A program made the position numbers. Shown here piece after piece: positions 12,001 to 15,000 of a stretch of 64,000 bases of DNA (positions are counted from its first letter, which is position 1; each line of letters begins with the position of its first letter). This DNA is from Escherichia coli O157:H7 (lineage in GTDB: Bacteria > Pseudomonadota > Gammaproteobacteria > Enterobacterales > Enterobacteriaceae), in assembly GCF_013167455.1 (NCBI RefSeq), contig NZ_CP038328.1; one strand, given 5' to 3'.

Positions 12001-15000
12001 ACGTGCGCTGCATGCGCAAAACCAGCCAACAGAAACCGCCAATGCCGGGCAGCGTATCGCGCTTAACATCGCGGGTGATGCGGAAAAAGAGCAGATTAAC
12101 CGTGGCGACTGGCTGCTTGCCGATGTGCCGCCAGAGCCGTTCACACGGGTGATTGTCGAGCTTCAAACCCATACACCGCTGACCCAGTGGCAGCCGCTGC
12201 ATATTCACCACGCCGCCAGCCACGTCACGGGACGCGTTTCACTGCTGGAAGATAACCTTGCTGAACTGGTCTTCGACCCCCCGTTATGGCTGGCAGATAA
12301 CGACCGCCTGGTATTGCGCGATATCTCTGCCCGCAACACGCTGGCCGGAGCGCGCGTCGTGATGCTTAACCCGCCGCGTCGCGGTAAACGTAAACCAGAG
12401 TATCTGCAATGCCTGGCTTCCCTCGCCAGGGCACAGAATGATAGCGAAGCGTTAGCCGTTCACCTGCAACGCGGCGCGGTTAATCTTCCTGATTTCGCCT
12501 GGGCGCGCCAGCTCAACGGCGAAGGGATGCGCGAACTGCTGCAACAGCCTGGCTATATTCAGGCTGGTTATAGCTTGTTGAATGCGCCGGTTGCCGCTCG
12601 CTGGCAACGGAAAATTCTCGACACATTAGCGACTTATCATGAGCAACATCGCGATGAACCTGGGCCTGGGCGCGAACGTCTGCGACGTATGGCGTTGCCA
12701 ATGGAAGATGAAGCGCTAGTACTGTTGCTGATTGAAAAGATGCGCGAAAGCGGCGACATCCTCAGTCATCACGGCTGGCTGCATCTGCCGGATCACAAAG
12801 CGGGCTTCAGCGAAGAGCAGCAGGCCATCTGGCAAAAAGCAGAGCCGCTGTTTGGTGACGAGCCGTGGTGGGTGCGTGATCTGGCAAAAGAGACGGGTAC
12901 CGACGAGCAGGCAATGCGCCTGACGCTACGCCAGGCGGCGCAGCAAGGAATAATTACCGCGATCGTCAAAGATCGTTATTACCGTAACGATCGGATTGTC
13001 GAATTTGCCAATATGATCCGCGATCTCGATCAGGAGTGTGGTTCAACCTGCGCGGCGGATTTCCGCGATCGCTTAGGCGTAGGCCGAAAGCTGGCAATTC
13101 AGATTCTGGAATATTTTGACCGCATTGGCTTTACGCGTCGTCGTGGAAATGATCATTTATTGCGCGACGCATTATTATTTCCGGAAAAATAAGGAAATGA
13201 TTAATTAATTTTTAAAATAAATTAATACAAATTTCTTATGATTTTAAAAAAGCACATTGTTTAATGAATACAATGTGCTTTTTATTAGATTAATTTTGAT
13301 AATTAATAATAATGATCATGTTTTCGAATGAAAATCCTCAGTAAGCTGCCCACCCTTTTTTACACTTTCAGGAGTGTGTTATGGCATCTTCAACTTTCTT
13401 TATTCCTTCTGTGAATGTCATCGGCGCTGATTCATTGACTGATGCAATGAATATGATGGCAGATTATGGATTTACCCGTACCTTAATTGTCACTGACAGT
13501 ATGTTAACGAAATTAGGTATGGCGGGCGATGTGCAAAAAGCACTGGAAGAACGCAATATTTTTAGCGTTATTTATGATGGCACCCAACCTAACCCCACCA
13601 CGGAAAACGTCGCCGCAGGTTTGAAATTACTTAAAGAGAATAATTGCGATAGCGTGATCTCCTTAGGCGGTGGTTCTCCACACGACTGCGCAAAAGGTAT
13701 TGCGCTGGTGGCAGCCAATGGCGGCGATATTCGCGATTACGAAGGCGTTGACCGCTCTGCAAAACCGCAGCTGCCGATGATCGCCATCAATACCACGGCG
13801 GGTACGGCCTCTGAAATGACCCGTTTCTGCATCATCACTGACGAAGCGCGTCATATCAAAATGGCGATTGTTGATAAACATGTCACTCCGCTGCTTTCTG
13901 TCAATGACTCCTCTCTGATGATTGGTATGCCGAAGTCACTGACCGCCGCAACGGGTATGGATGCCTTAACGCACGCTATCGAAGCGTATGTTTCTATTGC
14001 CGCCACGCCGATCACTGACGCTTGTGCACTGAAAGCCGTGACCATGATTGCCGAAAACCTGCCGTTAGCCGTTGAAGATGGCAGTAATGCGAAAGCGCGT
14101 GAAGCAATGGCTTATGCCCAGTTCCTCGCCGGTATGGCGTTCAATAATGCTTCTCTGGGTTATGTTCATGCGATGGCGCACCAGCTGGGCGGTTTCTACA
14201 ACCTGCCACACGGTGTATGTAACGCCGTTCTGCTGCCGCATGTTCAGGTATTCAACAGCAAAGTCGCCGCTGCACGTCTGCGTGACTGTGCCGCTGCAAT
14301 GGGCGTGAACGTGACAGGTAAAAACGACGCGGAAGGTGCTGAAGCCTGCATTAACGCCATCCGTGAACTGGCGAAGAAAGTGGATATCCCGGCAGGCCTA
14401 CGCGACCTGAACGTGAAAGAAGAAGATTTCGCGGTTCTGGCGGCTAATGCCCTGAAAGATGCCTGTGGCTTTACTAACCCGATCCAGGCAACTCACGAAG
14501 AAATTGTGGCGATTTATCGCGCAGCGATGTAATCATCATTTCCACAACGGCTGGCAAATTGTCAGCCATTTTTTCAACTATCTCAAAACTTGCTTTTTTT
14601 GAGATAGTTTCTCTTTCCTGCTATACACTATCTCAATATTGCGCTTTTTTGAGATAAGCAAATGGCTATCAAATCACCTCCCACGCTGATTCCTTTATCA
14701 CACTTATCGGGTGAGGAACTCCAGGCCCACCTGCGCTTTAACCGGGTTACCGATGAAAAAGGACGTTATCTGCCTTTTGATGAGTTGCAGTACCGCATCA
14801 AAAAAGGAGAAAACGTCGATGTGGCGTGGACGCTTACCCGTCTGGCGCGCAACGCGGCGATCCAACGAATTAATTATTGCAATGAAGCGGGTGAACAGGC
14901 CGGATTCAACATTACCCCGGTGATTGCAGAAGCGTGCGAGCTTGTCGACAAACGTGCTACCGCGCTGGCGCTGAAAGATCAGACTGAACGGTTACGCGGG

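What the first reader, a model, noticed from the sequence alone, without database searches (positions are those of the whole stretch)
14576..14656. Two operator-like palindromes 50 bp apart directly upstream of fic
A perfect 13-bp inverted repeat AACTATCTCAAAA-N8-TTTTGAGATAGTT (14576-14609) and a second imperfect copy TATCTCAA-N12-TTGAGATA (14629-14656) sit between the yiaY terminator and the fic start codon. Both share a GCTTTTTTGAGATA direct repeat. A dimeric HTH regulator binding two operators is the simplest reading, and the Fic protein's own C-terminal HTH-like domain is an obvious candidate, which would imply autoregulation.
Basis: seen in the sequence. Interest (0 to 1): 0.5.

Follow-up and report, generated by a model that had tools for sequence, protein, structure and literature searches.

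The report
Self-repression operators of a Fic toxin gene
The two palindromes are real and are most likely the DNA sites where the neighbouring Fic enzyme binds, through its own DNA-binding tail, to shut off its own promoter. This arrangement is already proven for a distant relative, so the finding is solid but not surprising.

Summary
P1 (14576-14609) and P2 (14629-14656) exist as described. Both fit one pattern, TATCTCAA-N12-TTGAGATA, with starts 50 bp apart and P2 ending 5 nt before the fic ATG.

The decisive evidence is comparative.
- **Forward test:** TCTCAA-N12-TTGAGA (at most 1 mismatch) occurs 31 times in the roughly 120 nt upstream of fic homologues in unrelated bacteria. It occurs once in 433,550 other positions of the same loci.
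- **Reverse test:** 79 metagenome stretches carry the double-site pattern, and 70 have a Fic homologue starting 2-12 nt after it.
- **Linkage:** fic is the only gene shared by these loci.
- **Conservation pattern:** the arms and the N12 spacing are conserved, but the spacer sequence is not.
- **Co-variation:** more distant Fic clades have the same layout with different half-sites, and these track the predicted recognition helix.

[quoted passage not shown] The distal site overlaps a likely -35 and the proximal site covers the likely transcription start and ribosome-binding site.

Autorepression by a Fic-wHTH protein has been shown experimentally for Yersinia CccR. SoFic, another relative, binds its own promoter DNA.

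I class it as a new member of a known kind, of moderate interest.

The parts
14579..14606 (.). Distal operator: TATCTCAA-N12-TTGAGATA. In Escherichia it extends to the perfect 13-bp-arm palindrome 14576-14609 (P1).
   Evidence: for the sequence. It is conserved 48-51 bp upstream of the proximal site in 33 non-redundant fic loci. The arms are identical in 5 diverse fic+ E. coli strains and in E. albertii, while the spacer differs in E. albertii.
14629..14656 (.). Proximal operator: TATCTCAA-N12-TTGAGATA (P2). It ends 5 nt before the fic ATG.
   Evidence: It is the best-conserved element, with consensus TTATCTCAA-N-TTGAGATA and about 2 bits per core position. It is present even where the distal site is degenerate (L007, L011, L041).
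14599..14604 (+). Candidate -35 hexamer TTGAGA, which is the right arm of the distal operator.
   Evidence: Inference from consensus. It lies 17 nt upstream of TATACA. The equivalent TTGAGA-18-TATACT scores 10/12 in the orthologue L134. L007 has TTGACT-16-TAAACT at the same place. The tool did not call it in the window, because the -10 there ends in A.
14619..14627 (+). Candidate extended -10, TGcTATACA, ending 3 nt before the core TCTCAA of the proximal operator.
   Evidence: A TAT-containing hexamer, often preceded by TGn, is conserved at -9 to -3 relative to the proximal site in the 33 representatives. No transcription-start data were available.
14651..14654 (+). Likely Shine-Dalgarno GAGA, inside the right arm of the proximal operator and 7 nt before the ATG.
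   Evidence: Read directly from the sequence. It is weak, and this is an inference.
14662..15957 (+). fic: a 431-aa class II Fic enzyme with a C-terminal winged HTH, the proposed regulator of the two sites. Inhibitory motif S129-x3-E133-G134; catalytic motif H264-PFRDGNGR-272.
   Evidence: ORF. Pfam Fic covers residues 177-281, and HTH families cover 361-414. The PADLOC SoFic model matches at E=2.4e-43. The AF2 model has pLDDT 88. Foldseek matches SoFic, Coxiella Fic2 and CccR over 350-367 aligned columns.
15847..15888 (+). Codons for residues 396-409 (SDNTVRADLRTIVK), the predicted recognition helix of the wHTH.
   Evidence: Helix 397-409 in the AF2 model. S396, N398, T399, A400 and R401 are conserved among homologues. 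Residue 398 co-varies with the half-site sequence across Fic clades.

Best explanation

A Fic homodimer binds each 8-bp/N12/8-bp site, with half-site centres about 20 bp, or two helical turns, apart. The distal site overlaps the -35. The proximal site covers the transcription start, the short 5' UTR and the ribosome-binding site. Occupancy therefore blocks RNA polymerase and holds this potentially toxic AMP-transferase at a low, self-limited level (negative autoregulation).

Shown here: the sites exist, are conserved in sequence, spacing and position, and are linked to fic genes only. The half-sites co-vary with the recognition helix. The protein has the Fic-wHTH fold.

Inferred: physical binding, the dimer stoichiometry, the promoter elements and transcription start, and that the effect is repression.
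For: 1. **Forward test.** TCTCAA-N12-TTGAGA with at most 1 mismatch occurs 31 times in 9,366 positions at -140 to -20 of 78 fic homologue loci. It occurs once in 433,550 other positions. The hosts include Escherichia, Pseudescherichia, Pseudomonas, Marinomonas, Alcanivorax, Ningiella, Glaciecola and a Leptolyngbya assembly.
2. **Reverse test.** Of 79 metagenome stretches with the double-site pattern, 72 have a Fic homologue and in 70 it starts 2-12 nt after the motif. Two more are fic starts cut off by a contig end.
3. **Linkage.** Fic is the only protein family shared by 20 motif-positive loci.
4. **Operator-like conservation.** The core hexamers are essentially invariant. Symmetry extends only 2 bp outward and not into the spacer. 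The spacer is always 12 bp but is not conserved in sequence. Site-to-site spacing is 48-51 bp.
5. **Population data.** The whole P1-to-ATG block is nearly invariant in 5 diverse fic+ E. coli strains, with single changes in the -10 and just before the ATG, while the adjacent yiaY terminator varies. E. albertii differs only in the spacers.
6. **Co-variation.** Distant Fic-wHTH clades keep the two-palindrome layout with other half-sites: xCTAA-N11-TTAGx with helix YQTAR, TATCAA-N11 with YATAR, and TACCAA/TACCGA with YDTAR. The (T/G)CAA types go with xNTA.
7. **Promoter geometry.** A -10-like element is conserved just upstream of the proximal site.
8. **Precedent.** CccR represses its own promoter through a palindrome near -35/-10, shown by EMSA, DNase I footprinting, lacZ fusions and operator mutants (PMC9755527). 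Dimeric SoFic binds the 100 bp upstream of its own gene (bioRxiv 10.64898/2026.07.09.737422).
Against: No binding or expression data exist for this clade. The promoter scan did not call a + strand promoter in the window, because the candidate -10, TATACA, lacks the usual final T. No transcription-start data were available.

Both palindromes can also fold as RNA hairpins (P1 -14.1 and P2 -7.3 kcal/mol), and P1 was flagged as terminator-like, so an added RNA-level role is not excluded.

The helix/half-site co-variation is confounded by phylogeny, since the classes are also clades.

About 470 fic-less E. coli genomes keep one complete site. A site can therefore persist without the protein, which I read as a deletion vestige.

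The operator geometry differs from the only footprinted relative, CccR, which has 10-bp arms separated by 26 bp.
Confidence: 0.8

Rival explanations
1. The palindromes work mainly as RNA structures. P1 would be a second intrinsic terminator or insulator after yiaY. P2 would be a hairpin that pairs the fic ribosome-binding site and limits translation.
For: P1 was called terminator-like, with 13 pairs and the tail TCTCTTTCCT. The predicted hairpins are -14.1 and -7.3 kcal/mol, and the whole spacer folds with z = -6. The right arm of P2 contains the likely SD, GAGA.
Against: What is conserved across species is an 8-bp arm with a fixed 12-nt gap. There is no selection for pairing inside the gap or beyond 2 outer positions, which makes for a poor hairpin but a typical dimer site. 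The arm sequence, not only the pairing, is conserved at about 40% protein identity. The orthologous distal sites are not terminator-like (0 called) and lie in unrelated contexts. The conserved -10-like element puts the likely start inside the left arm of the proximal site, so fic-promoter transcripts could not form the P2 hairpin. There is no Rfam match.
Confidence: 0.1
2. They are operators for some other regulator encoded elsewhere in the host genome, not for Fic itself.
For: Binding by Fic has not been shown. One exact extra site lies upstream of a HigA/XRE-like gene in Alcanivorax (L026 1313-1336). A few double sites have no detectable fic next to them (L094, L116/L147, L136, L143).
Against: The motif follows fic through Enterobacterales, Pseudomonadales, Alteromonadales, Oceanospirillales and beyond, with no other shared neighbour. 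It is almost absent elsewhere in those loci. It changes in step with the Fic recognition helix. A host factor conserved across all these taxa and dedicated to one accessory gene is unlikely.
Confidence: 0.05
3. They are recombination sites or ends of a mobile cassette that carried fic into the yiaY-aldB spacer.
For: fic is present in only 29% of complete E. coli genomes at this one locus. The empty sites show junctions at TATCTC.
Against: Both palindromes lie on the same (5') side of fic, and nothing comparable is at the 3' end. There is no recombinase or transposase. The block is single-copy in every genome and absent from plasmids. The same sites occur at fixed distance from the start codon in unrelated contexts. 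The fic-less forms are better read as deletion vestiges that keep a whole or half operator.
Confidence: 0.03

Closest known systems
CccR (YPK_0951) of Yersinia pseudotuberculosis and its operator in PcccR (PMC9755527; PDB 7xux)
   Same: It is a class II Fic enzyme with a C-terminal HTH domain. It is dimeric and represses its own promoter by binding a palindrome placed at the -35/-10 region. The window protein matches 7xux structurally over about 357 aligned columns and by sequence at E=1.4e-11.
   Different: CccR is 380 aa, while this protein is 431 aa and has an extra N-terminal segment of about 95 aa. The CccR operator is one inverted repeat, AGATAATCAT-N26-ATGATAATCT. Here there are two sites of TATCTCAA-N12-TTGAGATA, 50 bp apart. 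CccR is a T6SS-linked effector, and no such context is seen here. Sequence identity is under 20%.
SoFic (SO_4266) of Shewanella oneidensis, and the single-gene 'SoFic' anti-phage defence family
   Same: It has the same domain order and fold (TM 0.57-0.70). The PADLOC SoFic model matches residues 96-428 at E=2.4e-43. Dimeric SoFic binds the first 100 bp upstream of its own gene (bioRxiv 10.64898/2026.07.09.737422).
   Different: It is not a SoFic equivalog: the NCBIfam score is 39.9 bits against a cut-off of 550. The SoFic site has not been mapped. The promoter DNA printed in that preprint's Table S2 shows ATGTCGAT-type repeats rather than TCTCAA (my reading). Anti-phage activity has not been tested for this clade. 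EcSofic of E. coli H397 (PMC12249575) is a different, roughly 370-aa paralogue.
Autoregulated type II toxin-antitoxin operons, e.g. Phd/Doc of phage P1 (Doc is a Fido-fold toxin; from general knowledge, not tested here)
   Same: A toxic enzyme gene is kept at low expression by negative feedback through palindromic operators that overlap its promoter.
   Different: There is no separate antitoxin or repressor gene here. The DNA-binding domain, the inhibitory helix (S129-x3-E133-G134) and the toxin domain are all in one polypeptide.

Membership tests
Self-repressing Fic-wHTH proteins (CccR type) | The adjacent gene encodes a class II Fic enzyme (HxFx[D/E]GNGRxxR plus an N-terminal [S/T]xxxE[G/N] inhibitory motif) with a C-terminal winged HTH. 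| tested here: met
   HPFRDGNGR is at 264-272 and S129-SQL-E133-G134 is invariant in homologues. Pfam finds Fic plus HTH families. The AF2 model shows three helices and a two-strand wing at 367-427. Foldseek gives full-length matches to SoFic, Coxiella Fic2 and CccR.
Self-repressing Fic-wHTH proteins (CccR type) | A palindromic operator lies in the gene's own promoter, overlapping the -35/-10 or the transcription start. | tested here: inconclusive
   The palindromes are present and conserved. Overlap with the promoter rests on consensus matches only: TTGAGA-17-TATACA here, and tool-called equivalents in L134 and L007. The tool called no + strand promoter in the window, and there are no transcription-start data.
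Self-repressing Fic-wHTH proteins (CccR type) | The C-terminal domain binds the operator directly, and deleting the gene or mutating the operator derepresses the promoter. | not testable with these tools
   This needs EMSA or footprinting and reporter fusions. The indirect support is exclusive linkage of motif and gene and co-variation of helix and half-site.
Self-repressing Fic-wHTH proteins (CccR type) | The same operator sequence and geometry as CccR (10-bp arms, 26-bp spacer). | tested here: not met
   Here the sites have 8-bp arms and a 12-bp spacer, occur twice and start 50 bp apart. This is a different operator within the same regulatory logic.
SoFic equivalog / SoFic defence system | Sequence membership, by the NCBIfam equivalog cut-off or the PADLOC model. 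| tested here: inconclusive
   The PADLOC SoFic model matches at E=2.4e-43, but the NCBIfam SoFic equivalog scores 39.9 bits against a cut-off of 550. The protein is a relative, not an equivalog. Defence activity was not tested.
Rho-independent terminator | A G+C-rich stem with a short loop, followed directly by a U-run, at the 3' end of a transcription unit. | tested here: inconclusive
   P1 passes a permissive scan, with 3 G-C pairs among 13 and an interrupted T-tail. P2 does not pass. yiaY already has a canonical terminator at 14549-14575. The orthologous distal sites are not terminator-like.
Dispersed extragenic repeats (REP/BIME, ERIC, MITE-like) | Many copies scattered through a genome. 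| tested here: not met
   The 92-bp block has a median of one place per genome in 2,052 E. coli genomes (highest 2) and none on plasmids. There are only two pattern matches in the 64-kb window, both at this locus.
Known structured RNA families (Rfam 15) | A match to a covariance model. | tested here: not met
   No match up to E=1 in 14300-14900 on either strand.

The most novel reading that the evidence does not exclude
The operator pair may be more than a feedback switch. In this widespread one-gene module the chromosomal sites could hold the Fic dimer in a DNA-bound state that also sets its enzymatic state. DNA binding switches (de)AMPylation in Coxiella Fic2 (PMC10628234). Loss of, or competition for, the operator, for example during phage infection, would then both derepress the gene and release an active toxin.

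A second new element would be a simple, transferable recognition code, in which residue 398 of the recognition helix (N, Q, A or D) specifies (T/G)CAA, CTAA, ATCAA or ACCAA half-sites.
Probability: 0.15. Interest if true: 0.65.

Novelty: new member of a known kind. Interest (0 to 1): 0.4.

Why it matters
Fic-wHTH proteins are widespread toxin-like AMP-transferases, and some of them act in anti-phage defence. Only one, CccR, has a mapped operator.

This analysis defines the operator of a large uncharacterised clade: TATCTCAA-N12-TTGAGATA, present twice about 50 bp apart. The clade occurs in 29% of complete E. coli genomes, including O157:H7. Other clades show the same two-site architecture with half-sites that co-vary with the recognition helix.

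That yields ready-made, testable predictions: EMSA probes, operator mutants and a specificity-swap residue. It also gives a sequence signature for finding these genes and their vestiges. It does not reveal a new regulatory principle.

Tried and rejected
- **Rfam:** the scan of the spacer found nothing.
- **Terminator reading:** tested by scanning orthologous loci, where no terminators were called at the distal sites.
- **Dispersed-repeat reading:** rejected, because the block is single-copy per genome.
- **Mobile-cassette reading:** rejected, because both sites lie on one side of fic, there is no recombinase, and the empty sites look like deletion vestiges.
- **G-U versus A-C mismatch counts in the arms:** meant to separate an RNA stem from a DNA palindrome, but there were too few mismatches to decide.
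- **Genome-contig scan:** This turned out to be useful for showing breadth.
- **Literature searches:** nothing on this gene at yiaY-aldB, and no published TCTCAA-type Fic operator.
- **SoFic promoter sequence:** read from the preprint's supplement to look for the same motif. It is different.
- **Dimer model:** not attempted, because the tools return no coordinates, so the distance between recognition helices could not be measured.
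Full report
**1. The observation**

The region lies in the 129-bp spacer between yiaY (13381-14532) and a 431-codon fic-family ORF (14662-15957). aldB follows, and all three genes are on the + strand.
- P1 is a perfect inverted repeat with 13-bp arms (14576-14588 / 14597-14609) and an 8-nt centre.
- P2 has 8-bp arms (14629-14636 / 14649-14656) and a 12-nt centre.
- A 30-nt direct repeat puts the two copies exactly 50 bp apart.
- TATCTCAA-N6-16-TTGAGATA matches twice in the window and never in 100 shuffles.
- A canonical yiaY terminator lies just upstream, at 14549-14567 plus a T-run.

One correction is needed. GCTTTTTTGAGATA is exact only in P2, because P1 has one more T. 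Both sites can be written as TATCTCAA-N12-TTGAGATA.

**2. Place in E. coli**

The window is identical here to E. coli 2017C-4109, and the operator block is identical to O157:H7 strains. fic sits between yiaY and aldB in 1,572-1,575 of 5,426 complete genomes. It is always chromosomal and a single copy at the median.

Fic-less genomes come in two forms.
- About 470 keep one complete site (AACTCTCTCAAAA-TTTGCGAT-TTTTGAGAGAGTT, or with A in the left arm) plus a TATCTC remnant joined to TGTAAYCC.
- K-12 keeps only CAACTATCTC joined to TGTAACCC.

An unrelated sequence would almost never match this operator pattern (see section 3). I therefore read these forms as vestiges left when fic was deleted, not as insertion targets. 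E. albertii has fic at the same place.

Among five diverse fic+ E. coli strains the yiaY terminator region varies. The block from P1 to the ATG is nearly invariant, with single changes in the -10 and just before the ATG. E. albertii differs only in the two spacers.

**3. Comparative test, gene to motif**

The protein has 2,119 database relatives at E <= 1e-10. A scan of one genome per species returned 80 loci, mostly at about 40% identity. TCTCAA-N12-TTGAGA, always with exactly 12 between the hexamers, lies directly upstream of the fic homologue in:
- Escherichia and Pseudescherichia
- Ningiella and Glaciecola
- several Pseudomonas, and Halopseudomonas
- Alcanivorax and Marinomonas
- a Leptolyngbya assembly and several MAGs

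With at most one mismatch there are 31 sites in the 9,366 positions at -140 to -20 from the start codon. There is one site in the other 433,550 positions. Sites usually come in pairs. The only protein family shared by 20 motif-positive loci is Fic itself.

**4. Reverse test, motif to gene**

The double-site pattern was searched in metagenome contigs and gave 79 stretches.
- 72 carry a Fic homologue by tblastn.
- In 70 of these the inferred start is 2-12 nt beyond the motif.
- Of the seven without a hit, two are fic starts cut off by the contig end (L162, L138).
- The other five (four distinct sequences) have no recognisable fic.
- L089 and the first copy in L092 are decayed remnants.

**5. Anatomy of the conserved element**

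From 33 non-redundant regions:
- The proximal consensus is TTATCTCAA-(12, A/T-rich ends, otherwise free)-TTGAGATA. The core hexamers are essentially invariant, at about 2 bits per position.
- Dyad symmetry extends two positions outward and stops there. Inside the 12-bp gap, pairing is at the level expected from composition.
- Start-to-start spacing of the two sites is 48-51 bp, mostly 50 or 51.
- The start codon follows the proximal site by 1-9 nt, with one locus at 14 nt.

Fixed spacing, conserved arm sequence and free spacer sequence are the signature of a site read by a symmetric protein dimer. A selected hairpin would look different. The 13-bp stem of P1 is an Escherichia peculiarity.

**6. 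Promoter geometry (inferred)**

A TAT-containing -10-like hexamer, often preceded by TGn, is conserved 2-4 bp upstream of the proximal core. In the window this is TGcTATACA (14619-14627). It lies 17 bp after TTGAGA (14599-14604), the right arm of the distal site.

The scan tool did not call this promoter, because its rule needs T at the last -10 position. It did call the equivalent TTGAGA-18-TATACT (10/12) in the 67% orthologue L134. It also called TTGACT-16-TAAACT in L007, and both end 2 nt before the proximal core.

This geometry places the transcription start inside the left arm of the proximal site. The distal site then covers the -35. The proximal site covers +1, the roughly 28-nt leader and the likely SD (GAGA, 14651-14654).

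**7. The protein**

- Pfam finds Fic at 177-281 and several HTH families at 361-414.
- The catalytic motif HPFRDGNGR (264-272) and the class II inhibitory motif S129-x3-E133-G134 are invariant among homologues.
- The AlphaFold2 model (pLDDT 88, pTM 0.86) ends in a three-helix, two-strand winged HTH at 367-427, with recognition helix 397-409.
- Foldseek aligns 350-367 columns to Coxiella Fic2 (8cil), SoFic (3zcn, 3eqx) and CccR (7xux).
- The protein matches the PADLOC SoFic model (E=2.4e-43, residues 96-428) but is far below the NCBIfam SoFic equivalog cut-off.
- It has an N-terminal extension of about 95 aa that those relatives lack.

**8. Co-variation of reader and site**

More distant Fic-wHTH homologues have the same layout, often two palindromes 49-54 bp apart just upstream of the gene, but with other half-sites. 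Aligning the recognition helices and listing perfect 7-bp-arm palindromes gives the classes below.

| Recognition helix | Half-site | Loci |
|---|---|---|
| S[DY]NTA and xENTAR | (A/G)TCTCAA, AACGCAA, AACTCAA | about 20 |
| YQTAR | xxACTAA or xGCTAA, N11 | about 13 |
| YATAR | TATCAA-N11 | L063, L068; with one mismatch L056 |
| YDTAR | TACCAA or TACCGA, N11 | L082, L064 |

This pattern is expected if the linked protein reads the site. It is partly confounded by shared ancestry, because the classes are also clades.

**9. Literature**

- **CccR.** This class II Fic-HTH protein of Yersinia pseudotuberculosis represses its own promoter. It binds AGATAATCAT-N26-ATGATAATCT near the -35/-10 through its C-terminal domain, as a dimer. 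The evidence is lacZ fusions, EMSA, DNase I footprinting, ITC and operator mutants (PMC9755527).
- **SoFic.** The dimer, but not the monomer, binds the first 100 bp upstream of its own gene (bioRxiv 10.64898/2026.07.09.737422).
- **Coxiella Fic2.** It binds DNA through its wHTH (PMC10628234).
- **EcSofic.** The structural paper deals with a different, roughly 370-aa paralogue and did not examine DNA binding (PMC12249575).
- **This gene.** I found nothing on the gene at yiaY-aldB or on its operator.

**10. Rivals**

- **RNA hairpins.** They are physically possible (P1 -14.1 and P2 -7.3 kcal/mol; region z = -6), and P1 passes a permissive terminator scan. The conservation pattern, the unrelated contexts, the lack of terminator calls in orthologous loci and the likely start inside P2 argue against this as the conserved function. 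A secondary role on read-through transcripts from yiaY cannot be excluded.
- **Another host regulator.** This is unlikely, given the exclusive linkage to fic across distant taxa.
- **Mobile-element ends.** Both sites lie on one side of the gene and the block is single-copy.
- **Chance.** Excluded by the counts in sections 3 and 4.

**11. Verdict**

Binding, the sign of regulation and the transcription start remain to be shown.

It is a new member of a known kind. The operator motif, the two-site architecture, its breadth and the helix/half-site correspondence appear to be undescribed, while the regulatory logic is known. Confidence in the main explanation is 0.8, and interest is 0.4.

Noticed in passing
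L002 ~478-511, L003 ~2965-2998 (fic-less E. coli); L001 ~476-495 (K-12): Fic-less E. coli keep vestiges of the operator block. About 470 genomes have one complete TCTCAA-N12-TTGAGA site plus a TATCTC remnant fused to the last bases of fic. K-12 keeps only CAACTATCTC fused to TGTAACCC. This suggests repeated loss of an ancestral fic at yiaY-aldB.
   Followed up: partly
L026 1313-1336: This is the only exact TCTCAA-N12-TTGAGA site outside a fic upstream zone in 433 kb. It lies about 70 nt upstream of a HigA/XRE-like 112-aa ORF (1407-1745) in Alcanivorax, 1.2 kb from that genome's fic. It may be a second target or a coincidence.
   Followed up: partly
L092 1483-1556 and 2408-2482: Two double-operator blocks lie 925 bp apart. 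The first is followed by a decayed copy of the fic N-terminal coding sequence, which suggests a former tandem duplication.
   Followed up: partly
L094 7993-8066; also L116/L147, L136, L143: These are complete double operators with no detectable fic next to them. In L094 the nearest ORF (8168-9535) looks like an HD-domain dGTPase. They may be orphan operators, or operators serving another gene.
   Followed up: no
window 14662-14946 (residues 1-95 of Fic): This Fic clade has a confidently modelled N-terminal extension of about 95 residues, with helices and a beta hairpin at 68-82. It lies outside the PADLOC SoFic match, which starts at residue 96, and its function is unknown.
   Followed up: no
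L051, L053, L068, L073, L077, L082 (upstream 120 nt of fic homologues): Distant Fic-wHTH clades carry two palindromes 43-54 bp apart with their own half-sites: CTACTAA, GTGCTAA, TTATCAA, CGGCTAA and CTACCAA, all with N11. These track residue 398 of the recognition helix (Q, A or D instead of N).
   Followed up: partly
L088 (E. coli CLSC36), position equivalent to window 14626: There is a natural variant of the candidate -10, TATATA instead of TATACA. It is one of the few polymorphisms in the operator block among the strains compared.
   Followed up: no
window 14559-14571 / 14660-14672: A 13-nt inverted repeat (85% complementary) brackets the whole operator block. It runs from the yiaY terminator to the first fic codons and is probably chance.
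   Followed up: no
SoFic promoter DNA, Table S2 of bioRxiv 10.64898/2026.07.09.737422: The 300 bp upstream of the S. oneidensis SoFic gene contain repeated ATGTCGAT/ATCGACAT half-sites in fragments F1 and F2, and two GTATAGA...TCTATAC palindromes in F3. The preprint does not map these (my reading).
   Followed up: no
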